In this document: piece after piece, positions 84-21,301 of the stretch
Numbering within the stretch: the stretch's first letter is position 1
Layout: each line of letters starts with the position of its first letter
Origin: a virus
Reading direction: 5' to 3' (one strand)
Length of the DNA: 36,405 nt
UHGV virus genome: UHGV-0210252
Notes under the pieces: generated by a model
The model's database searches: none
Seen by the model: only the letters and a program-made list of their open reading frames with translations
What the model was told of the DNA's origin: nothing
Program-made: the position numbers and the translations under genes

Positions 84-160
84 TACTGTAGGCCACAGCC
101 ACTGTAGGTCAAGGACCGTAGGTCAGGCGACACTAGGATAGACCAATAAGTAGGATGACC
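84..160. repeat. Array of about five degenerate direct repeats (CTGTAGGYCA-like, ~15-16 bp period) beyond gene 19.5, near the genome right end
   Basis: Seen directly: ctgtaggcca (86-95), ctgtaggtca (102-111), ccgtaggtca (116-125), actaggata (132-140), agtaggatga (149-158). T7 carries short repeat arrays next to its terminal repeat. Confidence 0.5.
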
Positions 161-283
161 CTAAGTGAGCTTCTCTTAAGGTGTTACCTAAAGTCCTTGA
201 CTACAGTAGCTAAGGTCAGTAGAGTAGCGTCAGCTATGAACTGACCTTAGGTCTTACGTTCGTGGATTGTTACCATTACGGCG

Positions 284-2502: not shown

Positions 2503-2504
2503 TG

Positions 2505-2948
2505 TTACACCTCCTTATCTTGCTGCAAGGCTCTCACAGTGTCCTGAAGCGCCTTAATCCACTTGTCTCCTTTCAGTCCGATGGAGATAAGACGTTTAGC
2601 ATCTCGTTCGTCAAGTTCGGCGTAACCATCAATGACGCATCGACCGTCACTTTGCGTGGTTCCACTCGTTGGTTTGACTCGGATGCGCAACCGCTTATTG
2701 TCAGACTGAAGGTCAGCAATAATCCTATCAGTGCTACCTTCCAGCGAGGACATTTCGTCCTGAAACCGTTTGGACACTTTGTTGACTTCAGCTTGGACAG
2801 CAAGCCTTGTATCCTCTGATGCCTTAAGATTCGAGGTGTATTCTGCATTGACCTTAGCCTCCCACTTATTGTTAGCGGTGTGGTAGCCACCAGCAAACAT
2901 CACTGCTGCAAGTAACCACGGAGCCGCTCTCTTTAAAAATTCGAGCAT
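2505..2948 (-). CDS. i-spanin (T7 gp18.5, Rz-like)
   Basis: 147 aa, N-terminal TM segment then coiled coil; position between small and large terminase genes as in T7. Confidence 0.85.
2573..2848 (-). CDS. o-spanin (T7 gp18.7, Rz1-like) embedded in +1 frame of the i-spanin gene
   Basis: ORF 2573..2896 contains signal-like segment [18 protein letters not shown] (lipobox-type Cys) and C-terminus ...[19 protein letters not shown] resembling T7 gp18.7; start chosen at internal Met (2848), start uncertain. Confidence 0.65.
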   Translation of the reverse strand: MQNTPRILRHQRIQGLLSKLKSTKCPNGFRTKCPRWKVALIGLLLTFSLTISGCASESNQRVEPRKVTVDASLMVTPNLTNEMLNVLSPSD

Positions 2949-3687: not shown

Positions 3688-5931
3688 TTAAGGTATTACA
3701 TTGCCCATATAATCCTGCCACTGTCCATATGCGTAATAGAACACCTTCTTACTATTAGGGTCAGACCAGTGAGTACCTGTAACAGGATTCTCAGGTCTAC
3801 CGCGTCCGTACAGAATTGCAGGTACTACAGCGTACTGCGCAGAACCATTGTCTGTAGCATCTGTAAGGGAGACGTAAGCAGCGGTGCCGTGAACATCAGG
3901 TCTGCGCTCTATGCCCCACATACCTAGTCTCGGACCCTTAGCATAAGTCATATCCTTCTGACCAGTTGCGCCTGCACGGGTAAAGCCCCCGAAGCAGTCA
4001 AACAGGAATGCAGGTGGGGTATAGTCTTTGAAGTTCTGAGCGATCTGCTGGCCTGTATCTCCAAAGCTACCGATATACGGACGTACGCCACCGTGAGTCT
4101 GCTTAACGCCGTCGAACTCTACGAAGCTGTCGCTAAGGTCAGAGCTTATACTTGGTTCAGAGAAGCTGAAGGTGAAGTCACTCCTAATGTCCACGAACCG
4201 CACCTGACTTTGGAAGGAAGTGTAGAAACTGCTGTTAAGGTTAGCTGGAACACCGCCGAGGTTTTCTAGTAGCACCTTACTGATATTCACAGAACTAGCT
4301 CCAAACTGGAAGTAGTGGTTGAATCCCGGAGAGGATGCTAAGTCAAATCCGTACACTGTACCTATATCTGCACGAGTACGTGTAAAACGTACAATCGGCC
4401 CTACTGTATCAGCCTTGGCAGATTCCCAGCCAAGTGAGCCTGCACTGCCGCTAAAGTCTACAAAGTCGTATGGGACACCATAGCACCGGTCGCAAGCAAG
4501 GCTACCAATACTGCTATATACGCAAGTAAGTTTATACGCTACACCAGTGCTTCCGTACACGAAGATATTATCTATGAAGTTAGTCGTACCCATAGTGCCC
4601 ATGATGAACCCGTTCCCGCATAAGCTGGAATGTAGGGCTGTGAATCGGGACAAGAAGACGGCGTCGTCGAACTTAATCATCGTACCAAAGCCTTCAATCC
4701 GCAGGTTATGCCACAGCATCTGGGAGCAACCGTTAGTAGCATGAATACCATAACCTACTGTACCAATAATGCTGCTTAAGTGCCCATCCTGAACAATATC
4801 AAAGTCTCTAAGGGATACGTTATAGGTATACTCCCCTGTGGCAGCTGGGCGTATACGTAGGCCATCTGAGCCGTTAGGGAAGGTAAGTAATGACTGTGAT
4901 CGCCCCTCGCCGTACATGTTCAAACCGCTCTTACTATAATGATTCTCTACAGTAATCGTTATAGGGTCCGAACAAAAGTAATTGCCTTCAGGAACTCCCA
5001 GTCTGCGTTTAGATGCTATGGCAGTAATAACAGCCTGCTGCACGGCAGCATAATCAATAGATTGATCAAGAGAAGTTACGAATGGATAGACAGCTTTCGC
5101 CTCTGCAAGTGTGGTGAATCTCTCACTTAATTTATGAAGAACGCCATCACCAATTGCGCCAAAGTCTTTTACACTAAGTACTTCAATAAGTTTATTATTA
5201 ACTGTTCTTCCTACCGAGCCGACAACTGGCTGTTTTGTTGCCACCAGCATATCGCCATTGCCATCACCTGAACTTGCCAGGGCTGCTCTCAATGATGCAT
5301 CACCAACACTAACCCATGCACCAATACCAACACCACCAGATGCTTCAGGTGTTGAGCCGGCAGGAACGTTCTTTGGAAGCATACCATCCCAGCGGTAATA
5401 CTCACCATCCTCTTCCCATAGCAGGACCTCGTTCCATGTTGTAATGTTGAAGCCTTTCTCGAAGGAGCGACGGGTAATATAGCCGATTAGACCAGATGCC
5501 TTGATATTATCAGCGATTCGTCGTGCTTCGTCCTCGCTATCCTTAGCGTTGCCAGCAGAGCTACCAGCAGCATCGGCATATTCCTTCGCTAAGTCAACAG
5601 TTTGGTCTCGACCTTCTTCTGCAATATGGATAGCCTGAAGCTCTGCATTGGTCAGGTCACTAGCTGTCAACACTGAGCCATTCCTGAAGTCTACCACTAA
5701 GTCAGTTCCAGTCTGACGGTGAATACGAACGACGTCGAAACCTGATTGGTCAACCAACATCTCAATCATCGTTGGATTAAGGAATCGGTAATCTCGACCG
5801 ACTTCCAGTACACGGTTCATGGTAGGGTTAGAGCTATTCACCAGCGTAACAACAACAAACGTTCTGGCTAGGTAGTCGAACTCAATCCTGTACTGAGTGT
5901 TTCCTGAAGGGAATTGTGTAATCGTGGACAT
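3688..5931 (-). CDS. Tail fibre / tailspike (T7 gp17 family) with divergent C-terminal beta-helix depolymerase-like domain
   Basis: 747 aa; first ~150 aa resemble T7 gp17 N-terminal attachment domain (FDYLARTFVVVTL...DYRF); remainder unlike T7 and contains VKDFGAIGDG motif typical of pectate-lyase-fold tailspikes. Confidence 0.9.
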   Translation of the reverse strand: MSTITQFPSGNTQYRIEFDYLARTFVVVTLVNSSNPTMNRVLEVGRDYRFLNPTMIEMLVDQSGFDVVRIHRQTGTDLVVDFRNGSVLTASDLTNAELQAIHIAEEGRDQTVDLAKEYADAAGSSAGNAKDSEDEARRIADNIKASGLIGYITRRSFEKGFNITTWNEVLLWEEDGEYYRWDGMLPKNVPAGSTPEASGGVGIGAWVSVGDASLRAALASSGDGNGDMLVATKQPVVGSVGRTVNNKLIEVLSVKDFGAIGDGVLHKLSERFTTLAEAKAVYPFVTSLDQSIDYAAVQQAVITAIASKRRLGVPEGNYFCSDPITITVENHYSKSGLNMYGEGRSQSLLTFPNGSDGLRIRPAATGEYTYNVSLRDFDIVQDGHLSSIIGTVGYGIHATNGCSQMLWHNLRIEGFGTMIKFDDAVFLSRFTALHSSLCGNGFIMGTMGTTNFIDNIFVYGSTGVAYKLTCVYSSIGSLACDRCYGVPYDFVDFSGSAGSLGWESAKADTVGPIVRFTRTRADIGTVYGFDLASSPGFNHYFQFGASSVNISKVLLENLGGVPANLNSSFYTSFQSQVRFVDIRSDFTFSFSEPSISSDLSDSFVEFDGVKQTHGGVRPYIGSFGDTGQQIAQNFKDYTPPAFLFDCFGGFTRAGATGQKDMTYAKGPRLGMWGIERRPDVHGTAAYVSLTDATDNGSAQYAVVPAILYGRGRPENPVTGTHWSDPNSKKVFYYAYGQWQDYMGNVIP

Positions 5932-5976: not shown

Positions 5977-5999
5977 AGTTTCCTATAGTGATAGTTTAG
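5977..5999 (-). promoter_or_regulatory. Phage RNAP promoter (phi17-like), TSS about 5982
   Basis: cctatagtgatagtt at 5982-5996; followed on minus strand by leader with AAGGAGG and the gene 17 ATG. Confidence 0.8.
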
Positions 6000-8900
6000 T
6001 CCTTGATGTGGATGCCTTGCTCCTCAAACGTTCCAAGCAACAGCTTCTGGGTAATGGGGTCGTTCGGAACCAGTTCACGGAACGTATTATACATCCCGGT
6101 CATGTAGTCACGCTCGTTGACACGAGTATCAGCCTTGAGGTAGCCAGCCAAGTTGTAAGCCGAAGCGCCAACGTTAGCAGCATATCCGAAAGCTGGAACC
6201 TGCTCCAAGAAGTTACCAACAACATTCATCACAGGGTCACTTGTAGCTGCACCATACGCGATGGCACGTTCAGGCTTCTCTGTAGGCGAACGAGGTAGGA
6301 TAGACGAACGGAGCATCTTAGTGTCCTCGTACCCAGCGATACCCCCAAGAATGTTAGCTACCCCAAGTGGTCCACCAAGATGTGAACTACGCGATAGAGC
6401 CGCATATCCAATCATCGTCGGGTCCAGAGCTTGCTTGAGGTAATCACGGTCTCGGCCATCCTGCATAGCGTAAGCCTTGACGTGCGCCTGAGCCATGTAG
6501 TAGATACCGGCAAGTCCCATAGACATCACAGTTGACAGAGCAGCGTCCATCGCTCGGTTGTTCTTCGTGGCATTATAGAAGGTTCGCATGGTTCGCCCAT
6601 TGATGGACTTGATGACGAAGTTCTTAAACTGAAGGACAGTCTTAGCGAGAGGGCCATAAGCCTTGGCGTCCATGTTTGATAGCTTATGAGGTCGGAGTAA
6701 CGTTTCGTCAGCGATGGTGTCACCCATACGCCACAGGTCCATAGCCCTTGGGTCCTGACTGAACGCCTTCTTGTCCTTGATGGTATACTTCCCGTCTGGA
6801 CCACGAGTCACTGACTCACGGATTAGGGACTTAATACCCTTCCACTGCTCGTCAGAGATACCAGCGGTCTTCAGCCAGCGGTCATCGAACTTACGCTTAC
6901 TACCAGTCAGGCTATGCTCCACGATGTCAGACAGGAAGCCTTGACGTCCAGCATCTAACAGGTAGTTGGTCGTACCGTTGAGGACTTTAGTGAACGGAGA
7001 GCGTACTGCAAGTTCACCAGTGTAATACTTTGCAGATCCTAAAGCAGTAGCCGTAGGTTTACTCAAGGCGCTGTAAGCTCGTAGGCGGTCTATGACATCC
7101 TGTTTAGACGGACGGATTGAGTCATCCAGTTCCTTACCGAAGATAACATTGTGCAGGTCCTTAATCTCTGAGGCCCCTACCTTCTTGTTACGGAAGGCTA
7201 GGTCACGGAACATCGGGACTCCATGCAGCAGCGCACGAACGTTGCCACGAGCAAGCATACCACCAATCTCCGTTAAGTTCTGAACACCCATGTAGGCATT
7301 CTTAGCGAAGAACGATAGGTCTGTCATTGTGCGCATCACGGTAGCGAAGGCCGCATCATCAGCACCATCACGTCTAGCACGACCAGTTAGAATCTTCAAA
7401 GTGTCACGTAAGGTCGAGACCTCACCTTTCAACTTGCCGTCATCGCCAGCCTTGTTCATCATGGTCTCAACCAAGTCCTTCATGTCCTTCGTGGTCTTTC
7501 CTGTACCAGCCATGATAGCAATGTCACCATTAACTCGACGGTTGTATGCCGGGACAATCTTATCCATATCCCACTCACGTAGACTATTTACGCTGAACGG
7601 CTTACCATTTGGCAAGGTTATTTCCATGTCGTTATCGAACAGGTTGCGAGCCTCAAGGAAGTTATTGTTCTCCAGACCAACCAGACCGTTGATGTTTTCT
7701 TCCATTACGGATGAACGCTCAAACTGCTCTGTATGGGAGATACCATAAGCCTTATCATTAGCATACTTCTCTACCATATCCATAGTCACCTCTGGTGCTG
7801 CTTGAGATGCGTTACCAGATGTAGGTTCACCAGCAGTAGTGGTCTGACCATCTACAGCAGTCTTCTGCCCTTTGGCAGCTGCCACAGCCGATTCAGCTTC
7901 AGTTGTTGCTTTGGTGATTCTGTCTCGGACCTTAGCAGCCTGTCCTTTCATGTAGTCAAGACGCTCAGTGTTAATACGGACGTGAGACTTCTGAGTCTCA
8001 ATCATCTGCTTCCGGCTCTCAATCTTAACAGGAATGGTCTTGCTCTTAGGTTTAGCGGCTAGCTTTTCTTCCAACTCCTTCAGCTTAGCTTCATGGGAAG
8101 CCAGTCGGTCCTTTGAGTTCTGGAGTCTCTTTTCACGGTCTGCAACTCGCTTCTCAGCGTTGGTAAGGACATCTTTGAGTTCCGCTACCTTATCAATTGC
8201 CTGTGTAGCCGCATCGTCCAGTTTCATCTGGTCACGGGCTGCTTCTACAGAAGAACGATGATTTGATGCAGTACCTACAGTCTTACCTGCTGCTGGTTGA
8301 GATGCCCGTAACTGCTCTGCTAACATCTCGTCCACTCGCGCCTTGACTTCAGGTCTTGACGCATAGCTTGTCAACCATGACTTCTTGATTGCCTCCTGTA
8401 ACGCCTCTGGGCTTCCAAGCTCATTGATATAAATCTGCTTCATCTGAGAACTATAGACCACAGGAACGTAGGTTCCCTTGAATCTACTACCCGGGAAGAT
8501 AGACTGAGCATCTGTACGACCAAACATCGCTGGGTTCTCCATCATCTCGCGCTTTGCATCAAACTGGTTCTTCAGCAGGTCATAGACTTTCAGTTCCCCC
8601 GGAGTAAGTTCAGCCTTCAGGTTCCCGCTACCATCCTCAATAGCCAAAGCCTCGCGCTTATAAACATCCTCACGCAGAGCTGAGTTATCTCGCCAGAATG
8701 CTGTCTGGAAGTACGGGTCCTTGAGCGCCTCAGTAACAGCATCGTCGATGTCGTTGTAGAACCGATGGTCCACAGCACGAAGTCTCTCGAATACGTCTGA
8801 CGCAGTGGTCCCGATTTTACCTGAAGCCCCTGACTGCATACCAGTTGGTGAACGCACTAAGTCAGCAGCGACTCCACGAATCTCAGGGTTCTCAGACCGA

Positions 8901-10384
8901 AGCAGCTTCAGGCCAATCTCGGTAAGTCCACCAAGGTTCACACCAGCAGCGGCACGTTCAGGCTCAATCACTTCGTCAAAGACTTGACGTGTCTTAGGGT
9001 TCAGAGGGTTCTCACCAATAAGGATTGAACCATCTTCCAGTCGTACACTACCCGGCTCGTTCGGAACGTCTGCGAACTTAACACCTTGATGACTGAAGGT
9101 CTGCTCACCTTCCTGAATAGGTAGACGAGACAGGTCCTGACCATCAACATTACGTGCAGTCTCACGGGCTTCCAGACGTGTAGCCGGACCAGAGAACTCG
9201 TTAGTGGTACGACCTAAGGCTCTGCTTAACCCATCAGCGATAGCAGTCATACCGCCGCCGAAGAGAGCACCGCCAAGGATAGCTTCAGCCACATGAGCAT
9301 CACCACCAGCCACTGAGGTACGGGCCATCTCGGACACACCAGCCAGTGCCCCAGATTGAGCAGCCACGGTGAACATCTTGTTGACTAGCTTACCACCTTT
9401 ACCAACCTGTCCAGCTATAGGAACGTAGGTCAGCGGGTCTACACCAGCACCAATCACACCAGCAGCTAACTGAGCACCAATCCCTGCCTTGGCCTTCTCT
9501 TGGTCCAACTTCTGGTTCTCAAGCGCCAAGTTAATAAGCTCAGTCAGGTTCTGAGGGGAGCCACCAGTAATTACTCCGTAATACTGAGGAAGAACCCCAG
9601 CGTTACGAATCTGGTCAAGCTCCTCACGAGACCACTTATGGTTGTTCCATCGCGTCGGGTTGAACACATCGCCAATGACATCCAGTGAGTCCTCAGTCTG
9701 ACCAGCGCGGATAGCCACGCCGACCATAGAGTTCTTCACTTCAGCTTCTGTAGCCGCACCAAAACCGAACCACGTAGAGCGGCCCTCTCGTTCCTGCATG
9801 GTCTCGCCAGTAGACTTATAGAACATCTCACCGAACGATTCGTTGGGAGCTTCAGGTGCTTGACCCTCAATGTTTAGACCAGCAGCGGTCGGAAGGTTCT
9901 CGCCCAGAGCTACTTTAGGTTTAGCCTTGAGTCCTTCCGTGAGTGCGTCAAATACGTTAGCGCTTACTGGTGGAGTCTTTGGGCTAATGCCATTGAGTGC
10001 TCGTGCGACTCCCTTCTGATAGACTTCAGGGTCGTACCGGGAGCCTGTCTCATGGAAGCTGATAGCTTGAGCCAGAGAAGACAGGGTGTCAGGGTCAGAT
10101 AGGTCGAGACTCTGGGTAGCTGGAATACCAGTTGTGGCCACCACTGAGTCAATATAAGCCTTAGTGTCGTTCTCGTTAGGAGGCGCCCATCGGTTGATAA
10201 TCTTCTCGATGGAGTCATAACCTTGGCGACCGTAGGACAGCAGGTTTTTACCTAAAGCTCGGACGCCAGACTCTGGACTATCGAAGGTGACGAATGCGCC
10301 ATCATCTCCAGTCATTCCTTCCCATTGGTCCTTACTTACCCGGATGTTACCCGGATTGTTATTGCGAATACCACGAGTCGCCAT
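5996..10384 (-). CDS. Internal virion protein D (T7 gp16 family), 1462 aa, with non-T7 N-terminal domain and central coiled-coil insertion
   Basis: Extensive recalled similarity to T7 gp16 from about residue 200 onward (STWFGFGAATEAEV..., GVDPLTYVP, RLEARETARN, MVEKYANDKAYGISH, C-terminal LVPNDPITQKLL). Confidence 0.9.
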   Translation of the reverse strand: MATRGIRNNNPGNIRVSKDQWEGMTGDDGAFVTFDSPESGVRALGKNLLSYGRQGYDSIEKIINRWAPPNENDTKAYIDSVVATTGIPATQSLDLSDPDTLSSLAQAISFHETGSRYDPEVYQKGVARALNGISPKTPPVSANVFDALTEGLKAKPKVALGENLPTAAGLNIEGQAPEAPNESFGEMFYKSTGETMQEREGRSTWFGFGAATEAEVKNSMVGVAIRAGQTEDSLDVIGDVFNPTRWNNHKWSREELDQIRNAGVLPQYYGVITGGSPQNLTELINLALENQKLDQEKAKAGIGAQLAAGVIGAGVDPLTYVPIAGQVGKGGKLVNKMFTVAAQSGALAGVSEMARTSVAGGDAHVAEAILGGALFGGGMTAIADGLSRALGRTTNEFSGPATRLEARETARNVDGQDLSRLPIQEGEQTFSHQGVKFADVPNEPGSVRLEDGSILIGENPLNPKTRQVFDEVIEPERAAAGVNLGGLTEIGLKLLRSENPEIRGVAADLVRSPTGMQSGASGKIGTTASDVFERLRAVDHRFYNDIDDAVTEALKDPYFQTAFWRDNSALREDVYKREALAIEDGSGNLKAELTPGELKVYDLLKNQFDAKREMMENPAMFGRTDAQSIFPGSRFKGTYVPVVYSSQMKQIYINELGSPEALQEAIKKSWLTSYASRPEVKARVDEMLAEQLRASQPAAGKTVGTASNHRSSVEAARDQMKLDDAATQAIDKVAELKDVLTNAEKRVADREKRLQNSKDRLASHEAKLKELEEKLAAKPKSKTIPVKIESRKQMIETQKSHVRINTERLDYMKGQAAKVRDRITKATTEAESAVAAAKGQKTAVDGQTTTAGEPTSGNASQAAPEVTMDMVEKYANDKAYGISHTEQFERSSVMEENINGLVGLENNNFLEARNLFDNDMEITLPNGKPFSVNSLREWDMDKIVPAYNRRVNGDIAIMAGTGKTTKDMKDLVETMMNKAGDDGKLKGEVSTLRDTLKILTGRARRDGADDAAFATVMRTMTDLSFFAKNAYMGVQNLTEIGGMLARGNVRALLHGVPMFRDLAFRNKKVGASEIKDLHNVIFGKELDDSIRPSKQDVIDRLRAYSALSKPTATALGSAKYYTGELAVRSPFTKVLNGTTNYLLDAGRQGFLSDIVEHSLTGSKRKFDDRWLKTAGISDEQWKGIKSLIRESVTRGPDGKYTIKDKKAFSQDPRAMDLWRMGDTIADETLLRPHKLSNMDAKAYGPLAKTVLQFKNFVIKSINGRTMRTFYNATKNNRAMDAALSTVMSMGLAGIYYMAQAHVKAYAMQDGRDRDYLKQALDPTMIGYAALSRSSHLGGPLGVANILGGIAGYEDTKMLRSSILPRSPTEKPERAIAYGAATSDPVMNVVGNFLEQVPAFGYAANVGASAYNLAGYLKADTRVNERDYMTGMYNTFRELVPNDPITQKLLLGTFEEQGIHIKD

Positions 10385-10388
10385 TATG

Positions 10389-12671
10389 TTACTCCTTACC
10401 GATTAGTACGTTTGCGATACCCTCCAATGAGACGTCATTGTACATCCCTCCGCGCTTCTCGATGTTGGCCTCTCGGTCAGCTCGACGTTTATCACCAGCA
10501 GCTTTAGTCCCGACGATACGCGCTCGCTTGTTAGCGTCACGTTCTGCCTGAGCATATGCGGCATCTTGTGCCTTCTGCTGTTGTTCGCGGTAGAGTTTAC
10601 CTACAAGTTCTTTATCGTATCTAATACGAATAGTCCCTGTAGCGTCTTGGAGGAAGATAGAGCCGTTCTGTTCAACAACGGACAACTGAGAGTTCACTAC
10701 CCAAGGGTTGGCCTTAATGAGCTGCTTACGAGCGGTGTCGATAATGTCTCGACCAACCTGCCACGACTCTGGGTTATCCCCTACCATAAGCTGGTGCTTT
10801 GACACCATGCCGATGGACTTACCGTCAGAACCTTCAGACTGGAACGTTACGGTGTTCTCATTCAGCCAGCGTTGAGTCTGCTGAGTTGCAGCGTCAGCGT
10901 TACCTGTACGATAGTACCATGAGTCCCAGACCTTGCGAGCACTTGCGTCCAGAGACGTAGGAAGACGCGAAAGGTCCTTATTCCGAGAGTCGTTCTTCAA
11001 CTCCTGCCACGCCTTGTCTGACTCCATGCGCATCTCACGGCTTTGACTTGCAGCTTGCTTATCAGCTTCAATCATCGTCTGAGGGTCCAGACCCATCTTG
11101 TCCATCTGGTCGAACGTAGAGAACAACTGAGCTTGGTCAGGATACAGAGCAGCAAAACTTGAAGGGTCCTGAGTGTAGGCACGGCGAAGAGATTCGAAGC
11201 GTTGCATCTTGTCTGGGTCGTACTGCCCACGGATGACCGCGGCTTGCCACTCACCAGCAGCGTCCTGAGTCAGCGTCTGGAAGGCATTACGGAAAGGACC
11301 GTTGTTAGTGTCGGCCCTCAACAATGCCACCTTCTGAGCGTCCTTAGCAGCCTCGGGGATGTCCATCTGGTCAATCTGCTGTAGCTTGGCAGACGCATAG
11401 TTGTTCATGTCTGAACGCTTGAACTCTCCTGTAGCTTCAGAGACCGGAAGGTCCTCATAGTTGGTGGACACGTTGTCCCCAGCCAGACGTCGCTGATACA
11501 CTTGGTCAATGACCAGTTGCTTATTCTGGGTCTGGATTAACTTAGTGTTCTCCTTAGCCTGTTCAGCGGACTTACGCTTGACCGCTTCCAATAAGCTGGC
11601 TTCGGCATTAATAAGCATCTGACGCTGAGGCGTTAGCTCTTCACCCGGCTGAAGCAGGTTGTTCTGCTCCTTGAGTTTCTGAATCTGGGCAAGACCAATG
11701 GTTGGGTCATCTTGAAGAATCGCAGACTGAACGCCTAACGCCAAGTCTTCCTGATACTTAGCCACCAGTTTATACTCAGTACCTTGGGCCTCAACCATAG
11801 CAGCGTTGAAGACGTCAGGTCCTACAATCTCTTCGATGGTAGCGTCAACACCATTAAGTGTGATACGCTCGCCACGGACTTGCTGTAGGAAGTTTGAGCC
11901 TCCTGACTTCTGGATTGCGTCACGGACCGTCTGGGTGATGACCTCCCGTGCTCGCTGGTCCGAAGGGATAGCAGCAGTAGTCAGTCCATCACGAAGCTAG
12001 CCCATGAAGGTCTTACCTGACTCAGGTGAACGCATCAGGTCGCCATCGTTCAGGAATGAGTTCATCTCAATACGAGTATTCAACATTGCTGTCTCTTCAG
12101 ACTGCTTACTGAAATACTTATTGAAGGACCCATAGATAGCGATGTTGCGGTCTGTGATGTTATCGTTGAACCCTCGCTGGAAGAACTCATCGGTAGGGTT
12201 AATACCAGCCTCTTCCGCATAGGACTTAGCTGCATCCTGAAGTCTCTGGTGGCGATATTCTTCCATTTCCTGACGTGTGCGGAACTCACCGTTCTGAATC
12301 TTAACGTTAATCTCGTCGTCTACAGCAAAGGCAGCATTACGACCAGTCTTGACTCGAAGTGCTTCCATAGCGTAAGGGTCATCCTGATACAGCAATGTGC
12401 CGTTCTGGATAGCCTCACGTCTTTGCTGAGGTGTCAGCTTACGGATAATCTCGTTAGACCGCTCGTCTGCCCGTGTCTTCTCATCGTCCTTGAACTGCTT
12501 GTACAATCCTGTCCCAGACTCAACGAAGTTAGTCAATGCACGAGCCAGCCCGGAGTCCCCAGTAGGAGCCTGAACGTTGGCTGCTTGGTAGTTGACGGCG
12601 ATAGTTTTACCCGGTGCTCTGCCACGACCCATAGTCCGATTAGCCAGAGCTGATTCAATATTACTAGCCAT
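10389..12671 (-). CDS. Internal virion protein C (T7 gp15), one reading frame of 761 codons interrupted by an in-frame TAG at 11997-11999
   Basis: Track ORFs 11997..12671 and 10389..11798 are in the same frame; hand translation of 11996..11799 is open and T7-like (LRDGLTTAAIPSD...); similarity to T7 gp15 on both sides of the stop. Confidence 0.85.
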
Positions 12672-12682
12672 TAGTCCTCCTC

Positions 12683-13276
12683 TTAGCTATGACCTGTCGG
12701 TGTGCCTTTAGCAGCACTAATTGGTGCAGCACCACCACCACCAGAGCCTGAAGTCCCAGACATTGACTTACCAGCGGCGTAACCTTGCATCCCTGCGGTA
12801 GCAACATTAAGTGCATGAGCCAGTGGGCTGGTCTTGATGATTTTACCCTGACCACGGATAGCAGACTTGGTGTTCTCAATGTTGGCGATACGGTTCCCGA
12901 AGATAGCCGCATAGTCACGGTTGTAGCTTTCGGTAATCCCAGCTCTCTCCTTGACTGTGTCTCCCTCGACCTGACGTTCAATCCTGTTCATAGAGTTACC
13001 TTCCAGACCGGACTCAGCTACCGCAGCTCGGACCATACCCTGATTGCGGATACCGTTTAACGTGGTCTCTGTCAGTTCAGCCATCTGTTGCTCCTTCAGG
13101 TCTCGCTCCTGCATCTTCAGATTGGCGTCAGAGTAGTTCATCTGCTTAACCATCTCCTGAGCCTGACGGTTCTGAGCGTCTATAGCAGCACCCTCAGCCT
13201 TGGCCTGTTGAGATGCGGACATAGTGGCCCCGGCTACAGCCATGATACCCATGCCTATACTAGTTGGCTCGCACAT
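12683..13276 (-). CDS. Internal virion protein B (T7 gp14)
   Basis: 197 aa starting MC..., size and position as T7 gp14; overlaps end of gene 13 as compact T7 genes do. Confidence 0.8.
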   Translation of the reverse strand: MCEPTSIGMGIMAVAGATMSASQQAKAEGAAIDAQNRQAQEMVKQMNYSDANLKMQERDLKEQQMAELTETTLNGIRNQGMVRAAVAESGLEGNSMNRIERQVEGDTVKERAGITESYNRDYAAIFGNRIANIENTKSAIRGQGKIIKTSPLAHALNVATAGMQGYAAGKSMSGTSGSGGGGAAPISAAKGTPTGHS

Positions 13277-13731
13277 ACGTCCTCCTTAGAGATAGTGAAT
13301 AGTTGAAAACGCTCACCAGTTACCGGACTTGTGGTACACTCATCGTGAAACCTAGCTCCTAGTAACTTCAAGAATTTAATGTGAGACTTATTGCCTGACC
13401 ACACGTAGTTCCAGATGGTCCCGTATTGGTCTAACATTAAGTCCCTGTACTCAGAGATACGCTTTATGAACTCTCGCTTCTCTTTAGGTCTCAGCTTATA
13501 GACCAGACCGGAAGTCAAGAACCATACGTTATCCCCTTGGTTTCCACCATAGGCAAACACTTCTCCTACACCGTTCGTTAAAACCACAGCTGACGGAGAT
13601 AGGTGCTTAAGCAGTCTTTCAGCGCGGCCAACTGTTGACCCATAGTTTGCTTTGCACTCATTAACATCATCTGCTGAAAGATGCCACAGAAAGTAGTTGA
13701 CATCTGGTTCCGTAGCCTTGCGAATATACAT
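13255..13731 (-). CDS. Internal virion protein A (gp13 position)
   Basis: 158 aa ORF between phi13-like promoter and gene 14; assignment by synteny only. Confidence 0.55.
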   Translation of the reverse strand: MYIRKATEPDVNYFLWHLSADDVNECKANYGSTVGRAERLLKHLSPSAVVLTNGVGEVFAYGGNQGDNVWFLTSGLVYKLRPKEKREFIKRISEYRDLMLDQYGTIWNYVWSGNKSHIKFLKLLGARFHDECTTSPVTGERFQLFTISKEDVCASQLV

Positions 13732-13750
13732 AAAGTCTCCTTATAACCTT

Positions 13751-13800
13751 AAGGGCCTATAGTCCCTATAGTGATAGTTAAGGTAAATCTATAGGCCCTT
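13751..13800. repeat. Perfect 12-bp inverted repeat (aagggcctatag / ctataggccctt) enclosing the phi13-like promoter core
   Basis: Seen directly; arms at 13751-13762 and 13789-13800, promoter 15-mer at 13765-13779. Confidence 0.6.
13760..13782 (-). promoter_or_regulatory. Phage RNAP promoter (phi13-like), TSS about 13765
   Basis: cctatagtgatagtt at 13765-13779 between gene 12 stop and gene 13 start. Confidence 0.8.
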
Positions 13801-13807
13801 CAATAAG

Positions 13808-16165
13808 TTAGACGGAACGAGCTTTCTTAGCGTATGACGCCTCCCAGCCACACCCAACGATGGACACTGGGGTAGGATAATCGGACTCTAAGGTTAGACT
13901 CGTGGTTAATGCGTTACCATTCATAGCGAAGCGATACTGACCATCCCCAATGTTGGTAGTCCCGATGGTTTGCTGACCAAGGGTGTACCCATTAAAGGTG
14001 TTCACGAACTCCCGCTCTCCGTTTCTTACAATGAGTCTCAGAGCGCCAGTGTCTTTGTAGTTGACCCAAGCCCGACGAAGCTGTAGACGACCAGTGTCTT
14101 CAGACTGAGTGCCACTCTCGTCTTCAATCTTAATCAGGAACCGTGAGAACTTGTAGGACATCAGATAAGACCGTCCGATGAACACTGTACGTCCAGACCA
14201 ATCGCCGTTGAGGATAACCACAGTAGAGCTACTGGTCAAGTCCCCAAGGTCCACATAGGCACCCTGACTGTCAATCAGATAGTACCGACCGGGAGACGGA
14301 GCGTTGCCACCATAAGCAGCACCAATGTCAACCGTAGTCTTATAGGTGTCAGCATTATATGAGCCAATTGGAATTACCATAGACACCTTGGAGTCAACGT
14401 GGAGTCTATACGGCTCTAATGGAAAGTCAGTTGCCTCCTTGATGAACTTAAGGTGCTCAAGGTCCACACCTCCTTGGTGCTGACGAACAATGAACATGGT
14501 AGAGCCAATAGAAGCAGACGCCAGAATCTTATCAGCTTTAGGGAACTCCCAGTGTGACCAAGAGGCTTGAAGCTGTACGCCGTCCTTAAACAAGAACTTG
14601 TAGAGGTAGATTCGGTTGTATGCACCTGTAGAGTTGACGCAGATGTAGTTCTCAGTCCCTGTGCCCTGAATGTCAAACACCCCGTTAGGGATATAGGACA
14701 GTACGTGACCAGTGGTATCATCGGCATCCTTCACGTCAGACACATCTGCTACAGCGAAGTATCGCTTAATGCTGGTGAATGACCCACGAGGTGCTGAGAA
14801 GAAGACTGAGCGTCCTACAGCGAACGGTCGGGCATTATCTCCTAAGGCAAACTCTGAGCCTACATCAAGTTGGATAGACTTCGAGGTAAGGACCCCTGAG
14901 CTTGTCATCACGAACTGCACCTCATCTGACCAAAGTAGTAGCTGCTCACTAAACGGAACGGCATACTTAAGGACTGAGATTCGAGGGTTACTTACAGCTA
15001 CATCAATAGGATCATCGTCACCCAATGTCGCCACACTCTTAGGGAAGAACGCAAAGTAGCTGGCTGAACGGCTCATGATTACGTTCTCGCCTGACAAGAA
15101 CCCCAGCCTATTCCTGTAGAAGAACACATCGTTAATCGTAGAATCCACGAAGCTAGGCATAGGGTTTGTGTCATCATTACCAGCCCCACGCTTAGACCAG
15201 TCCAGAGTCTTGAACTCAAATGAGCCGTCAGATTGTCTCACCAGAGCATGAGGCATTGTGGTGTTATCGAACCCAGTGACCACTCCCGGCTCTACTGTCT
15301 CCTTCCACGTCTTAGTGTTGGAGTCATACATCACGTAATATTCATCGGCGCTACTGTTGGTCTCACCTTGAATCTTAATGATGTACCCATTTGGAGCCGC
15401 AAGAGGCAACTTAGAGATTGTCTGCACTGTGTCGAGGACTGGGCTGATTAGCTGGTTAGCGTAGCCATCCTCCGTCTCCACTGAGTTAATATCGGTCCCT
15501 GAAGGAGCTGTGATTAGCAGGAAGCCAGACCCAAGGTCAAACGTGAAGTCTGGATAGGCAGCAACAAGAAGGTCTCTAAGAGCTGAACCTATGTCCTGAG
15601 CGTCAACCTTAGGTGGGTCATTCTCGGCATCATTACCTGCTGGTAGCTTATGCGAGACCTTGACTCCTCCGTTGATTCCCACCTTAAGGGTTCGACCATA
15701 CTGTCCACCACGCAGGTTAATTAAAGCTCGTGCTTTGCGGTTATAACCAGAGTGTGACTTCTCGCTTCCACCTTTGACGACAACCTTACGGTTAACTACG
15801 AACGTATAGTCTGCTACGGTAACGACACGGATGTCATCTCGTGGGTTTGAGGACTTAACGTAGTCTACCACACCTGACACTGAGTATTGATTGCCACTCA
15901 AGTCAACTACCTGAATGTTGTACCCATTGAACACGATGTAATACTGCTCATGCTCGTCACGGTTAATCAGGTGGAACTTAGGGTTACTCCCAACGTCGAT
16001 GTTAAGACGTCTCTTGAAGACTGTAGGTGGGCGCTTCTGGAGGCCATCACTCTCGGATGACCAGCAGTTAACCTGTGCCTCGCCTTGGTCTGAGAACCTC
16101 AGTATATCAGGCTGTTGGCTAATGCCACCTTTAAGGTTCTTGATTGATTGAGTAATTAGTGGCAT
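13808..16165 (-). CDS. Tail tubular protein B (T7 gp12)
   Basis: 785 aa; strong similarity to T7 gp12 (SIKNLKGGISQQPDILR..., HLINRDEHEQYY, LQLRRAWVNY, CGWEA). Confidence 0.95.
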   Translation of the reverse strand: MPLITQSIKNLKGGISQQPDILRFSDQGEAQVNCWSSESDGLQKRPPTVFKRRLNIDVGSNPKFHLINRDEHEQYYIVFNGYNIQVVDLSGNQYSVSGVVDYVKSSNPRDDIRVVTVADYTFVVNRKVVVKGGSEKSHSGYNRKARALINLRGGQYGRTLKVGINGGVKVSHKLPAGNDAENDPPKVDAQDIGSALRDLLVAAYPDFTFDLGSGFLLITAPSGTDINSVETEDGYANQLISPVLDTVQTISKLPLAAPNGYIIKIQGETNSSADEYYVMYDSNTKTWKETVEPGVVTGFDNTTMPHALVRQSDGSFEFKTLDWSKRGAGNDDTNPMPSFVDSTINDVFFYRNRLGFLSGENVIMSRSASYFAFFPKSVATLGDDDPIDVAVSNPRISVLKYAVPFSEQLLLWSDEVQFVMTSSGVLTSKSIQLDVGSEFALGDNARPFAVGRSVFFSAPRGSFTSIKRYFAVADVSDVKDADDTTGHVLSYIPNGVFDIQGTGTENYICVNSTGAYNRIYLYKFLFKDGVQLQASWSHWEFPKADKILASASIGSTMFIVRQHQGGVDLEHLKFIKEATDFPLEPYRLHVDSKVSMVIPIGSYNADTYKTTVDIGAAYGGNAPSPGRYYLIDSQGAYVDLGDLTSSSTVVILNGDWSGRTVFIGRSYLMSYKFSRFLIKIEDESGTQSEDTGRLQLRRAWVNYKDTGALRLIVRNGEREFVNTFNGYTLGQQTIGTTNIGDGQYRFAMNGNALTTSLTLESDYPTPVSIVGCGWEASYAKKARSV

Positions 16166-16174
16166 AGGCCCTCC

Positions 16175-16402
16175 TTAAATCATACTCATTAGGACGTATC
16201 CTTCAGAGATGTCACCAACGTCAGCAATGTGGACAACCTTACGCGCTACCTGTTGTCCAGTATACCCGTTGTCCCACTCATTCAGGATAAGCCAATCGCC
16301 AACCTTAAAGTCCCGGTCGTTAAGTCTCAGTTCTGCTGTCTTTAGACCTAGCTGTACCGGACCAAAGTGCTGGCGGTGAATCTTCAGGTTGTGACTAGCC
16401 AT
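16175..16402 (-). CDS. DUF3850 / ASCH-like small protein (75 aa)
   Basis: Pattern H-LKI....F..V..G.KT.ELR.NDRDF.VGD.L.L.EWD..YTG matches my recollection of the DUF3850 (PUA/ASCH-like) family; not part of the T7 gene set. Confidence 0.7.
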   Translation of the reverse strand: MASHNLKIHRQHFGPVQLGLKTAELRLNDRDFKVGDWLILNEWDNGYTGQQVARKVVHIADVGDISEGYVLMSMI

Positions 16403-19333: not shown

Positions 19334-20898
19334 GCTTGAGCCATGTCCTCACCAGCTCCCTGACCTACAGCAGCACCCATGTTAGCACCAGCAGCACTAG
19401 CACCTTGGACAACTGCCTGTTGAGACGACTGCTCAGCCATGCGCTGAATCTTCTCGTCTTGCGTCAGGAGTAGACCAGCGGTGTCGATACCCAGAGCGTT
19501 CAGGAGTCGCAGCTTAAGGGTCGGCAAGTTGATGTCCGGGTCCTGAGATAGCGGCTGAAGACCAGTCATCATGTTAACAGCCTGAGTTAGCTTCTCCAAG
19601 TCCTGACCACGACCTAACGCTTCTAGACCAGTGGATACCGTAGGCTCTACCGCTTCTTTCGGAAGGTCTGGAATCATGCCAGCAGACTGAAGCTGGTTCA
19701 TCAGCACACGGACTATAGGTAACTGAAGCTCTTGTGACTGTACCGAGTACACTCCACCTAAGGTCGCCTCCAGTTCTCCAGCAACATAACGAATCTCTTC
19801 AGCAGTGACTCGCTCGGCATTACGCTGAACAGCACTATTGAGAAGGAAGGCCCAGCCTAAACGTTGCTCGATAGCGTCAGCCACCGACTTGGCAATCGTA
19901 AAGTCCTGACCTTTCGTCAGTTGCAGGAAGTTGATGTCCTCGACGCGACCAGCCACGAACTCACCTGTAGCCGCCGTGTTCAGACGACGAGGTTGCGTGA
20001 TACCATTCGGGTTAACGAGGCCCACCACCTTGGAGGCTACCTTAGCCATTTTGGTGATAGCTTCTGTAATCGTCTCCAGCGAGTTCAGGTCCCCAAGATA
20101 CTCCTCGCAATAAGAACGACCATAGTCTTCACCGTCCAGTCGAACCATTCGTACCGGGATGTATGGACATGCAGTCAGTGGGTAGGAACCCTCGGTCCCT
20201 GCTACCTCAATGCCTTCCACTTCTTCATAGCGCAAATACTCGTCGTCCTGACGGTAGATGTGCGTATATACTTCCAGCTCTGTGTCAGGATCATAGTCGT
20301 CTGCGTTGAGTTGTGACTTCACGTCTTCCGGTAGAGCACTAAACGCTACCTTGTCGAGAGTCACAATCTGCAAGATGTTACCGAACGCATCACGTTGAAC
20401 AACGTAAGACACTAAGCGGTACATTCTCATGGGACTGTAGGTCCCCTGTTCAGGCTCTGGAATGTAGAGCAGACAGTTACCGGAGACGATAAGCTGCTTA
20501 AGAGCCTCAAACAATGGGACACGGAAACTGTTAGTCTCCATGTAGGCCATCAACACACGCTCGACCATAGCCAGCCCTTCGTCAACACGAGCAGCCGCCT
20601 CTGAGTCCTGACTCAAGGTCTTAGCCTCATATTCGGAGACTGTTAGTCGCATCCACGGTGATTGAGGGAATAGCGCCAACATCAGCTTTGCAGCCAAGTT
20701 GTTCAAGCAGCGAGCACCTACAGCTTGCCACGGAGTGGTGTACTCAGTAGATGAGTTGTCGGACTCCTTAGGAAACAGTGACGGGATAGTGACAGCAGCA
20801 CAGTTCTGAGCGCGTGTCTCATATGGCTGTCTACCGTTCTTCAGTCTATCATAAACTGCCTTCGCGCCTTCAGCAGCAAATCCTTCACGTTCAGCCAT
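19330..20898 (-). CDS. Head-to-tail connector / portal protein (T7 gp8)
   Basis: 522 aa; strong similarity to T7 gp8 (YETRAQNCA, TPWQAVGAR, YRLVSYVVQRDAFGN, RVTAEEIRYVA). Confidence 0.95.
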   Translation of the reverse strand: MAEREGFAAEGAKAVYDRLKNGRQPYETRAQNCAAVTIPSLFPKESDNSSTEYTTPWQAVGARCLNNLAAKLMLALFPQSPWMRLTVSEYEAKTLSQDSEAAARVDEGLAMVERVLMAYMETNSFRVPLFEALKQLIVSGNCLLYIPEPEQGTYSPMRMYRLVSYVVQRDAFGNILQIVTLDKVAFSALPEDVKSQLNADDYDPDTELEVYTHIYRQDDEYLRYEEVEGIEVAGTEGSYPLTACPYIPVRMVRLDGEDYGRSYCEEYLGDLNSLETITEAITKMAKVASKVVGLVNPNGITQPRRLNTAATGEFVAGRVEDINFLQLTKGQDFTIAKSVADAIEQRLGWAFLLNSAVQRNAERVTAEEIRYVAGELEATLGGVYSVQSQELQLPIVRVLMNQLQSAGMIPDLPKEAVEPTVSTGLEALGRGQDLEKLTQAVNMMTGLQPLSQDPDINLPTLKLRLLNALGIDTAGLLLTQDEKIQRMAEQSSQQAVVQGASAAGANMGAAVGQGAGEDMAQA

Positions 20899-21301
20899 CT
20901 ACGTGCCTCCATGTTTTACCTGTTAATACGTCAGACAGCGTTCTCCTAGCTACTCCCGGATATGCAGAGGTAAGCTCTGTCGCTGTTAGCCCTGACTTTC
21001 GTATGGACTTAACATCTTCGGCTGTTAGCTTTGAGTTGTAATGGCTGTCACTATGTGGAGCGTTCTTTCTACCTTTTGAAACACAGTCTACCATGTTATC
21101 GCTATAAGTACCAACGCTCAGGTGTTCTGGATTGACGCATAGTCTATTGTCGCAGGAATGCATCACCACTAGACCTTCCGGTATGGGACCTTTGTGTTTT
21201 AGGTAGGACACTACATGCGCTCCCCGCAGCTTACCTGCATACCACTTCAGGCCATATCCAGCATTATTTACGCAGCCCTTATGCAGTATGCAGTCTGTCA
21301 T
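20891..21301 (-). CDS. Free-standing HNH homing endonuclease (gene 7.7 position)
   Basis: 136 aa with HSCDNRLCVNPEHL HNH motif; lies between genes 7.3 and 8. Confidence 0.8.
   Translation of the reverse strand: MTDCILHKGCVNNAGYGLKWYAGKLRGAHVVSYLKHKGPIPEGLVVMHSCDNRLCVNPEHLSVGTYSDNMVDCVSKGRKNAPHSDSHYNSKLTAEDVKSIRKSGLTATELTSAYPGVARRTLSDVLTGKTWRHVDG

What the first reader, a model, noticed from the sequence alone, without database searches (positions are those of the whole stretch)
11990..12006. In-frame TAG (amber) codon inside essential gene 15
Gene 15 is one 761-codon frame (12671 to 10389) except for a TAG at 11997-11999. Hand translation on both sides (...RSPESGKTFMG * LRDGLTTAAIPSDQRAREVITQ...) aligns with T7 gp15 (...RPDSADFFEKY IDNGLVTGAIPSD...), and the stop sits where T7 has Tyr, so one base change (TAY to TAG) explains it. 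Options: a genuine amber mutation (conditional-lethal, propagated on a suppressor host), a sequencing or assembly error, or a truncated virion protein with downstream reinitiation. T7 gp15 is needed for DNA ejection across the cell envelope, so a real truncation would be functionally significant.
Basis: partly seen in the sequence, partly recalled or inferred. Interest (0 to 1): 0.7.

Follow-up and report, generated by a model that had tools for sequence, protein, structure and literature searches.

The report
Lone amber stop in phage gene 15
One stop codon interrupts an otherwise intact, essential DNA-ejection gene in a K1F-like coliphage contig that traces to a PCR-amplified human gut virome; it is most likely an amplification or sequencing error, or else a dead-end mutant, and not a new biological mechanism.

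Summary
The TAG is really there (window 11997-11999, minus strand). It is codon 225 of a 761-codon gene 15 frame and the only internal stop. The gene is a clear T7 gp15 homologue, and the stop replaces a Tyr kept in 119 of 120 homologues (T7 Tyr224). No relative carries the TAG. The rest of the gene is under strong purifying selection on both sides (omega about 0.03), and every other gene is intact. TAG ends seven other genes and there is no tRNA, so this is not recoding. No usable restart follows the stop. Two contigs from run SRR7892438 match the window at 100%; one carries a whole-genome-amplification primer and ends 93 nt before the TAG. That run lies in a block of human gut virome runs made with PCR-based amplification and shallow sequencing. 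Best reading (about 0.6): an amplification or sequencing artefact at a thinly covered spot. Main rival (about 0.25): a real but non-viable or helper-dependent mutant genome. A lab amber mutant, suppression, readthrough or a split gene are all unlikely. Only the reads can settle it. Low interest.

The parts
10389..12671 (-). Gene 15 (internal virion protein C, ejectosome periplasmic-tunnel protein): a 761-codon frame with one internal TAG
   Evidence: Translation. 98.3% protein identity to K1F gp15 over 761 columns. E = 2.4e-211 to T7 gp15 and a full-length match to PDB 9vvp_I.
11997..11999 (-). In-frame amber codon TAG at codon 225, replacing a near-invariant Tyr (TAC/TAT in every relative; T7 Tyr224)
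   Evidence: (Tyr in 119 of 120 homologues, Trp in 1).
12000..12002 (-). Codon 224, GGC (Gly) where all close relatives have GCC (Ala). This is the second private C>G change, at window 12001. Gly224 occurs naturally in more distant K1F-like contigs.
11997..12671 (-). The 224-aa N-terminal product expected if the TAG terminates translation
   Evidence: ORF list. This exact product is not on record in the public gene-position index.
10389..11798 (-). Downstream 469-aa ORF from the first in-frame ATG (codon 292). The 20 nt upstream hold no Shine-Dalgarno sequence, so it is not a credible restart.
   Evidence: This exact product is not on record.
12683..13276 (-). Gene 14 (upstream ejectosome partner), intact. 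The exact protein is found on Logan contig SRR7892438_13533.
5996..10384 (-). Gene 16 (downstream ejectosome partner, long 1462-aa form as in phage ST31), intact
   Evidence: 97.3% identity to ST31 gp16 over the full length.
12092..13549 (.). Stretch reproduced at 100% identity by an independent Logan assembly of SRR7892438 (L015). It ends 93 nt before the TAG, and its other end runs into WGA primer sequence.

Best explanation
The TAG, together with the adjacent GCC>GGC change, is not a working feature of this phage. It is most likely an artefact that entered the contig at a thinly covered position: a polymerase error from PCR-based whole-genome amplification or library PCR, and/or clustered Illumina miscalls at a GGC motif. 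The real phage almost certainly encodes ...FM(A/G)Y LRDG... and makes a normal 760-aa gp15.

Shown: the two changes are unique to this contig. They are the only non-synonymous private changes in a gene under strong purifying selection. They share a rare mutation type. The phage is present in a run whose reads carry a WGA primer and whose accession lies in a block of WGA2-amplified, shallowly sequenced gut viromes.

Inferred: that coverage at the site was thin, and that the changes arose in vitro or in base-calling rather than in the phage.
For: (1) The TAG is unique. 9 close relatives, 13 IMG/VR gene-15 homologues and 119 of 120 protein homologues have Tyr (TAC/TAT). The mutant 17-mer is absent from IMG/VR, and its 14 hits in JGI metagenomes all lie outside gp15 homologues.

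(2) Nothing has decayed or compensated around the stop. omega is 0.02-0.07 downstream of the TAG and 0.01-0.03 upstream. Of the 21 private substitutions in gene 15 (against 9 relatives), 19 are synonymous. The flanks (58 nt upstream, 35 nt downstream) are identical to relative L001.

(3) The two changes look like one event. C>G makes up only 10 of 263 private substitutions genome-wide, yet two of them lie 4 nt apart here, both at sites invariant in all 11 relatives.

(4) Provenance. Logan contigs L015 and L094 from SRR7892438 are 100% identical to the window over 4,044 nt. L015 starts with the last 12 nt of the WGA universal primer TGTGTTGGGTGTGTTTGG. SRR7892426-477 are cited as gut VLP viromes of Moreno-Gallego et al.. 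That study used the GenomePlex WGA2 kit, TruSeq libraries and 2x250 HiSeq reads at about 0.8 M pairs per sample. The Logan assembly of this phage is broken into 1.5-2.6 kb pieces and stops 93 nt short of the TAG, which fits uneven or thin coverage.

(5) The ancestral sequence at the site is ...ATGGCCTACC..., i.e. a GGC motif about 25 nt after a short palindrome (ACCTGAgTCAGGT). Illumina sequence-specific errors start within about 10 nt of GGC, and C>G is cited as a common miscall. The first change (GGC>GGG) fits the 'copies the preceding base' pattern.

(6) There is no biological rescue route: no tRNA, TAG is a normal terminator of 7 other genes, and no restart codon is available.
Against: The contig as a whole is clean. 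220 of 263 private substitutions are synonymous. Its ratio of radical private changes at invariant sites to synonymous private changes (0.059) lies inside the range of cultured isolates (0-0.24). So there is no general error load, and the artefact must be a one-off.

De Bruijn assemblers normally need at least 2 reads supporting a path, so the mutant k-mers were probably seen more than once.

I could not see reads or coverage. Thin coverage at the site is inferred only from where the Logan contigs break. Assigning SRR7892438 to the twin-virome study rests on its position in the accession block plus the primer tip, not on a direct record.
Confidence: 0.6

Rival explanations
1. The mutation is real at the DNA level but is a dead end. 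A genome that gained a two-base mutation (A224G plus Y225amber) during replication was packaged using wild-type gp15 made by sibling genomes in the same cell, or persists at some frequency through complementation by co-infecting wild-type phage. Shallow, amplification-bottlenecked sampling then made it the 'consensus'. Such a genome yields no infectious progeny by itself, because a 224-aa fragment lacks most of the gp15 N-domain and the whole C-terminal region that binds gp16.
For: The TAG is embedded in an otherwise clean contig whose other private differences are natural in character. Gly224 is a naturally tolerated allele (GGC TAC/TAT in L010-L014). Equal purifying selection up- and downstream shows the change is very recent. 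VLP preparations sample individual packaged genomes, and amplification bias can over-represent a few templates. gp15 is essential and packaged in the virion core, 8 copies per virion (PMC8954989; the PDB entry has 8 chains).
Against: By my own rough estimates, a given newly arisen lethal mutant should be far rarer per base among virions than per-base PCR or read errors are among reads, so when only a few reads decide the base, artefact is favoured. A majority-frequency lethal allele needs sustained high-multiplicity co-infection, for which there is no evidence. Two simultaneous C>G changes are unusual for spontaneous mutation.
Confidence: 0.25
2. The amber codon is real and is read through. 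The natural host carries an amber-suppressor tRNA, or near-cognate readthrough at the weak TAG-C context supplies enough full-length gp15, so the phage is viable, possibly in a host-dependent way.
For: The replaced residue is Tyr, and TAC>TAG is the classic route to a Tyr-suppressible amber. I recall the TAG-C context as a relatively weak terminator in E. coli (own knowledge, not tested here). T7 can live with altered amber decoding in engineered hosts (PMC8923235).
Against: No relative shares the TAG. The phage encodes no tRNA. Seven other genes, including gp9, gp13 and the terminase, rely on TAG to terminate. No recoding signal has evolved, because the flanks are identical to relatives that have TAC, and no structure is present. 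Tyr225 is near-invariant, so Gln or Lys insertion may not be tolerated. I believe natural amber-suppressor E. coli are rare (own knowledge, not tested here).
Confidence: 0.05
3. It is a deliberately engineered amber mutation with a diagnostic NheI site. The two changes turn CCTACC into GCTAGC, giving a conditional-lethal or biocontained phage.
For: Two changes create both an amber codon at a Tyr codon and a perfect GCTAGC palindrome. Both changes share a rare mutation type and sit at invariant sites.
Against: The same phage occurs in a WGA-amplified run that falls within a human gut virome accession block. It is about 5% diverged from every deposited isolate. NheI already cuts at 3 other places in the window, so the new site is not unique. 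A designer would normally choose a silent marker, not A224G. Pairs of private substitutions within 6 nt are common in this genome (about 30 pairs).
Confidence: 0.02
4. It is a split gene. The 224-aa N-terminal fragment and a reinitiated C-terminal fragment together replace full-length gp15.
For: Both pieces remain open reading frames.
Against: The first in-frame ATG/GTG/TTG is codon 292, and the 20 nt upstream hold no Shine-Dalgarno sequence. The ATG next to the TAG is out of frame and stops after 2 codons. Restarting at 292 removes residues 225-291, including I235, P236, S237 and invariant D238. No relative has a split gene 15.
Confidence: 0.01

Closest known systems
Classical conditional-lethal amber mutants of T7 gene 15 (Studier collection; own knowledge, not checked here)
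   Same: A single TAG in the essential internal-core/ejectosome gene 15 of a T7-family phage. The predicted result is loss of functional gp15 and non-infectious particles unless the stop is suppressed.
   Different: Those are laboratory mutants selected and kept on suppressor hosts. This sequence traces to a human gut virome run, belongs to an uncultured K1F-like lineage, and carries an extra adjacent A224G change. No suppressor context is known.
T7 propagated under altered amber decoding (RF1-deleted or amber-reassigned E. coli; PMC8923235 and the Hammerling et al. 2014 work cited in it)
   Same: It shows that T7-family phages can tolerate changed decoding of amber codons when the host reads TAG as an amino acid.
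   Different: That needs engineered hosts. Here TAG still ends 7 other genes and nothing suggests such a host.
Illumina sequence-specific errors at GGC motifs and inverted repeats (Nakamura et al. 2011, PMC3141275), on top of PCR-based WGA (GenomePlex) error and bias
   Same: The ancestral sequence has GGC exactly at the first changed base and a short palindrome about 25 nt upstream. The changes are substitutions to G, and C>G is cited as a frequent miscall. The first change copies the preceding base, as described. The reads of the matching run carry the WGA primer.
   Different: The second change does not copy a preceding base. The palindrome arms (6 bp) are shorter than the reported triggers (over 8 bp). 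Strand bias and base quality cannot be checked without reads.
Stop-codon-recoded phages (TAG read as an amino acid genome-wide, e.g. some crAss-like and Lak phages; own knowledge)
   Same: An in-frame TAG inside an essential structural gene.
   Different: Recoded phages have many in-frame TAGs, avoid TAG as a terminator, and often encode suppressor tRNAs. Here there is one TAG, 7 genes end in TAG, and there is no tRNA.

Membership tests
T7 gp15 family (internal virion protein C, ejectosome periplasmic tunnel; Pfam PF26212) | Full-length sequence homology to T7 gp15 | tested here: met
   phmmer against the PDB: T7 gp15 (7eyb/7k5c/9jyy, 6ysz/6yt5) at E = 2.4e-211 over residues 3-726, and 9vvp_I (760 aa) full length. 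98.3% identity to K1F gp15.
T7 gp15 family (internal virion protein C, ejectosome periplasmic tunnel; Pfam PF26212) | Gene order 14-15-16 within the late structural operon | tested here: met
   gp14 lies at 12683-13276, gene 15 at 10389-12671 and gp16 at 5996-10384, all on the minus strand in the same order as K1F and ST31.
T7 gp15 family (internal virion protein C, ejectosome periplasmic tunnel; Pfam PF26212) | One uninterrupted ORF of about 750 aa | tested here: not met
   TAG at codon 225. All 120 retrieved homologues and all fetched relatives are uninterrupted there.
T7 gp15 family (internal virion protein C, ejectosome periplasmic tunnel; Pfam PF26212) | Match to Pfam PF26212 | tested here: inconclusive
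   The local Pfam scan of the two fragments returned no family. I did not check whether this copy contains PF26212. Precomputed annotation lists PF26212 for every listed homologue.
Genome-wide TAG reassignment (recoded phage) | Multiple in-frame TAGs across genes, and TAG avoided as a terminator | tested here: not met
   Only one gene has an internal TAG. Seven other genes end in TAG, including gp9, gp13 and gp19.
Genome-wide TAG reassignment (recoded phage) | Phage-encoded suppressor tRNA | tested here: not met
   ARAGORN finds no tRNA or tmRNA in the window. About 3.5 kb of the genome's left end is missing, but no relative inspected here has a tRNA annotated there.
Laboratory conditional-lethal amber mutant | A single nonsense codon in an essential gene of an otherwise wild-type genome | tested here: met
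Laboratory conditional-lethal amber mutant | Derived from a cultured laboratory phage stock | tested here: not met
   The nearest deposited genomes are about 95% identical. Identical sequence occurs in run SRR7892438, which carries the WGA primer and lies within a block of gut VLP virome runs.
Laboratory conditional-lethal amber mutant | Grows on a suppressor host but not on a non-suppressor host | not testable with these tools
   Needs the phage itself and plating assays.
Programmed readthrough or split gene | The stop is conserved in relatives and comes with a recoding signal or a restart site | tested here: not met
   The stop is unique. The flanks are identical to relatives with TAC. No structure is present (z = 0.70). 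The first in-frame start is codon 292, with no Shine-Dalgarno sequence.
Illumina sequence-specific error (Nakamura 2011) | A GGC within 10 nt upstream of the error start, in the read direction | tested here: met
   The ancestral coding strand reads ATGGCCTACC. The first changed base is the C of GGC and the second lies 4 nt downstream.
Illumina sequence-specific error (Nakamura 2011) | [quoted passage not shown] | tested here: inconclusive
   GGC>GGG fits. TAC>TAG does not.
Illumina sequence-specific error (Nakamura 2011) | Errors confined to reads of one direction with low base quality | not testable with these tools

The most novel reading that the evidence does not exclude
The amber codon is real, dominant in a natural gut coliphage population, and decoded: a host-borne amber suppressor or efficient near-cognate readthrough at TAG-C supplies full-length gp15. 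That would make this a naturally occurring, host-conditional T7-family phage.
Probability: 0.04. Interest if true: 0.6.

Novelty: not a real feature. Interest (0 to 1): 0.12.

Why it matters
If the stop were real and maintained, it would be a natural conditional-lethal in the DNA-ejection machinery of a T7-family phage, implying amber suppression in wild gut E. coli. That would be interesting for phage-host coevolution and for biocontainment ideas. The evidence points the other way: an isolated, very recent two-base blemish in a contig from a PCR-amplified, shallow virome.

The practical value is as a caution. Single in-frame stops in essential genes of virome-derived contigs, especially WGA-amplified ones, should be checked against the reads before the gene is annotated as split or as a pseudogene, or recoding is inferred. 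Here the gene should be annotated as one gp15 CDS with a suspected error.

Tried and rejected
(1) Finding the source contig or a near-identical genome. Exact-product look-ups of the 224-aa and 469-aa fragments, gp16, gp17 and a guessed 40-aa edge fragment found nothing. Only gp14 and gp12 hit, both on short Logan contigs of SRR7892438 that do not span the TAG. There was no match in the E. coli RefSeq genomes, the PLSDB plasmids or the GTDB genome contigs.

(2) Finding the mutant allele elsewhere. The 17-mer TTCATGGGCTAGCTTCG is absent from IMG/VR. Its 14 JGI metagenome hits all lie outside gp15 homologues.

(3) The idea that clustering of the two changes alone proves one event or engineering. 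I weakened this after finding about 30 pairs of private sites within 6 nt genome-wide, including pairs where both are non-synonymous. The shared rare C>G type at invariant sites still argues for linkage.

(4) A gene-conversion patch from a Gly224 lineage. Rejected, because none of the flanking L010-L014 variants is present in the window.

(5) A quasi-palindrome template switch. The ancestral sequence is not quasi-palindromic around the site, and both arms would have needed reciprocal correction (reasoned from the sequences).

(6) WGA degenerate-primer scarring at the site. Rejected. The window has no primer remnant, the region is not K-rich, and primer-derived bases would lie next to adapter sequence, not phage sequence.

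(7) General poor contig quality. Rejected by the synonymous/non-synonymous spectrum and the leave-one-out comparison with isolates. An apparent frameshift in the gene between 3 and 3.5 turned out to be an extra C in the K1F record.

(8) A local 'hotspot' suggested by phage LS2 (P0002). That record is scrambled and duplicated, so it is uninformative.

(9) The local Pfam scan of the gp15 fragments returned nothing.
Full report
**Observation**

The minus strand of the window reads ...ACC TTC ATG GGC TAG CTT CGT GAT..., with TAG at 11997-11999. Translating 12671..10389 gives 761 codons whose only internal stop is codon 225. The mechanical ORF list splits the frame into 11997..12671 (224 aa) and 10389..11798 (469 aa, from the first in-frame ATG). 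Window Tyr225 aligns with T7 gp15 Tyr224 in ...FFEKY-IDNGLVTGAIPSD.

**What the window is**

It is the reverse complement of most of a Kayfunavirus (K1F-like, Autographiviridae) genome. The nearest deposited genomes (ST31, K1F, PH1061 and others) are about 94-95% identical. It starts inside gene 1 (about RNA polymerase residue 443) and ends near the right genome end, so roughly 3.5 kb of the left end is missing.

Gene 15 lies between intact genes 14 and 16. Its product matches T7 gp15 (PDB 7eyb, 7k5c, 6ysz) at E = 2.4e-211. It is near-identical along its full length to the 760-aa chain 9vvp_I ('Gp28', 8 chains), which has Ala-Tyr at 224-225. gp14, gp15 and gp16 are essential core/ejectosome proteins. 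gp15 forms an octameric dome in the virion and a hexameric periplasmic tunnel with gp16 after ejection (review PMC8954989). A 224-aa fragment would lack most of that protein.

**What changed**

Six relatives, then nine, all read ATG GCC TAC CTT where the window reads ATG GGC TAG CTT. That is two C>G transversions 4 nt apart, at window 12001 (A224G) and 11997 (Y225amber). All thirteen IMG/VR contigs that carry a gene 15 homologue read GCC TAC or GCC TAT.

Among 120 protein homologues, position 225 is Tyr in 119 and Trp in 1. Position 224 is variable (K, A, N, R, S, G). Gly224 occurs as GGC TAC/TAT in more distant K1F-like contigs, so A224G would be tolerable by itself. The exact mutant 17-mer is absent from IMG/VR. 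Its 14 occurrences in JGI metagenomes all lie outside gp15 homologues, i.e. they are chance matches.

**Is it an old or a functional feature?**

No.

- Against nine close relatives, omega is 0.01-0.03 for codons 1-224 and 0.02-0.07 for codons 226-760. The part of the gene after the stop has been under the same strong purifying selection as the part before it.
- Of 21 substitutions in gene 15 that are private to the window, 19 are synonymous. The only two non-synonymous ones are this adjacent pair.
- The flanks (58 nt upstream, 35 nt downstream) are identical to relative L001, so no recoding signal has evolved. The region has no unusual structure (z = 0.70).
- TAG is a normal terminator for seven other genes, including the scaffold gp9, gp13 and the terminase gp19, which also ends TAG-C.
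- There is no tRNA or tmRNA gene.
- All other genes are intact. Gene 18.5 merely ends two codons early.
- The first in-frame ATG/GTG/TTG after the stop is codon 292, with no Shine-Dalgarno sequence. The ATG just after the TAG is out of frame and stops after two codons. Restarting at 292 would remove residues 225-291, including I235, P236, S237 and invariant D238.

Genome-wide recoding, programmed readthrough and a split gene are therefore rejected.

**Is the contig generally unreliable?**

No. Across 25 core genes (25.7 kb) compared with 11 relatives, the window has 263 private substitutions. Of these, 220 are synonymous and 43 are non-synonymous. That is the signature of real divergence under selection, not random error.

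In a leave-one-out comparison, the window's ratio of radical private replacements at invariant residues to private synonymous changes is 0.059. That lies within the range of cultured isolates (0.00-0.24). Its non-synonymous/synonymous ratio (0.19) equals ST31's, the lowest in the panel. None of the 11 relatives has a private stop. So the nonsense codon is an isolated anomaly.

Pairs of private sites within 6 nt are common (about 30), so clustering alone is not special. However, C>G accounts for only 10 of the 263 private substitutions. Two of those ten lie side by side here, both at sites invariant in all relatives. That points to one shared cause.

**Provenance**

Exact-protein look-ups found the window's gp14 and gp12 only on two Logan contigs of run SRR7892438. 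Both contigs are 100% identical to the window: L015 covers window 12092-13549 and L094 covers 13705-16290, 4,044 nt in total. So the phage is real and present in that run. Seven of the private synonymous sites in gene 15 are confirmed independently this way.

L015 ends 93 nt before the TAG. Its other end runs into GGGTGTGTTTGG, which matches no relative. That string is the last 12 nt of the whole-genome-amplification universal primer 5'-TGTGTTGGGTGTGTTTGG-K10N2 (PMC10781638).

Runs SRR7892426-SRR7892477 are cited as human gut VLP viromes of Moreno-Gallego et al. 2019 (PMC9188312 and PMC12862488). SRR7892438 falls inside that block. In that study, VLP DNA was amplified with the PCR-based GenomePlex WGA2 kit, made into TruSeq libraries and sequenced 2x250 on a HiSeq 2500, at about 0.8 M read pairs per sample (bioRxiv 10.1101/509273).

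Assigning the run to that study is an inference from the accession block plus the primer tip. The window itself carries no primer remnant.

**Interpretation**

A natural stool virome makes a laboratory amber mutant or an engineered amber-plus-NheI marker very unlikely. The new GCTAGC site is also one of four in the window, fewer than expected by chance.

Two readings remain: (a) an artefact, or (b) a real mutant genome.

*For (a), the artefact.* PCR-based WGA plus library PCR with non-proofreading enzymes, very uneven coverage, 250-nt reads and shallow depth are the conditions under which one or two fragments can decide the consensus. The fragmentary Logan assembly, which stops just upstream of the site, fits thin or uneven coverage there. 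The ancestral sequence ATGGCCTACC places a GGC motif exactly at the first changed base, about 25 nt after a short palindrome. GGC motifs and inverted repeats are the reported triggers of Illumina sequence-specific errors, which start within about 10 nt, affect one read direction, and mostly copy the preceding base. C>G is cited as a frequent miscall (PMC3141275). GGC>GGG fits this pattern, but TAC>TAG does not.

*For (b), a real mutant.* A newly arisen lethal mutant is packaged normally, because sibling genomes in the same cell supply gp15, so VLP DNA does contain such genomes. By my own order-of-magnitude estimates (not computed with tools), they are much rarer per base than PCR or read errors when only a few reads cover a site. 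A high-frequency lethal allele would need sustained complementation or suppression, and nothing supports either.

I therefore put about 0.6 on an artefact and about 0.25 on a real dead-end or complemented mutant. Suppression or readthrough gets about 0.05, engineering about 0.02 and a split gene about 0.01. The remainder is unassigned.

**Comparison with known cases**

The gene is a member of the T7 gp15 family on homology and gene order, but it fails the 'uninterrupted ORF' feature. In kind, the event resembles classical T7 gene 15 amber mutants and the amber-codon work in recoded hosts (PMC8923235), but it lacks their laboratory context. It does not resemble stop-codon-recoded phages.

**Verdict**

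Novelty is nil and interest is low. The only decisive test is the read pile-up of SRR7892438 and its sister library at window 11950-12050, which these tools cannot provide.

Noticed in passing
window 2499-2948 (minus strand), stop at 2505-2507: Gene 18.5 (Rz-like spanin) ends two codons earlier than in K1F and ST31: TAA replaces ACG/AAG at codon 148 of 150. This looks like harmless C-terminal variation.
   Followed up: yes
L015 positions 1-16 (Logan contig SRR7892438_13533), abutting window 13549: The contig tip GGGTGTGTTTGG+AGCT(T) matches no Kayfunavirus. Its first 12 nt are the 3' end of the GenomePlex-type WGA universal primer TGTGTTGGGTGTGTTTGG, so untrimmed amplification primer is present in the public assembly of this run.
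   Followed up: yes
window 24190-26959 (minus strand); endonuclease ORF 24466-24861: The DNA polymerase gene is interrupted, as in K1F (annotated there as a two-piece join), by an insertion carrying a homing endonuclease that is 100% identical in protein to K1F's. ST31, PH1061 and others have an uninterrupted polymerase gene. A second, 46%-similar endonuclease-like ORF lies at 20891-21301 between genes 7.3 and 8, identical to the one in ST31.
   Followed up: partly
window 5996-10384 (minus strand), extra segment about 7796-8314: gp16 is the long 1462-aa form found in ST31 and PH1061, not the 1295-aa form of K1F. About 520 nt in the middle have no K1F counterpart.
   Followed up: partly
window 3688-5931 (minus strand): The tail spike (747 aa) shares only its first ~220 residues with the K1F endosialidase. 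Pfam finds the T7-tail N-terminal domain plus a TSP1/Gp66-type N-terminal receptor-binding domain. The C-terminal receptor-binding part matches none of the compared phages, and the exact protein is not on record, so this phage probably targets a different capsule or O-antigen from K1.
   Followed up: partly
window 29763-30257 (minus strand) versus K1F DQ111067 9708-10178: The small gene between genes 3 and 3.5 is one intact 164-aa ORF here and in ST31. The K1F record carries an extra C near its 3' end that shifts the frame, so the oddity is in the K1F deposit, not the window. The window also has an 18-nt insertion relative to K1F and ST31.
   Followed up: yes
window 36405 (inside gene 1) and window 1-255: The contig begins in the middle of the RNA polymerase gene, with no foreign sequence at the end, and stops about 135 nt short of the K1F right end. 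The early region (genes 0.3-0.7) and the N-terminal half of gene 1 are missing, most likely because of an assembly break.
   Followed up: partly
protein P0002 (UniRef, Escherichia virus LS2 'internal virion protein', 777 aa): This deposited gp15 is scrambled. Segments of the gene are duplicated and reordered, and a short stretch right after codon 227 is read in another frame (AYLRWTNDCRYPF for AYLRDGLTTAAIPS). It looks like a low-quality assembly, not a biological variant.
   Followed up: yes
window 34263-34742 (minus strand): A 159-aa early ORF with no K1F counterpart in my comparison matches Pfam PF25755 (T3 gene 1.05 protein, E = 4e-25). This is ordinary mosaic early-region content.
   Followed up: partly
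core genes across the window: Private substitutions split about evenly between transitions and transversions (131 and 132), with many G>T (38) and C>A (36) changes, mostly at synonymous sites. I do not know whether this reflects a lineage mutational bias, how 'private' sites are polarised, or some oxidative-damage artefact.
   Followed up: no
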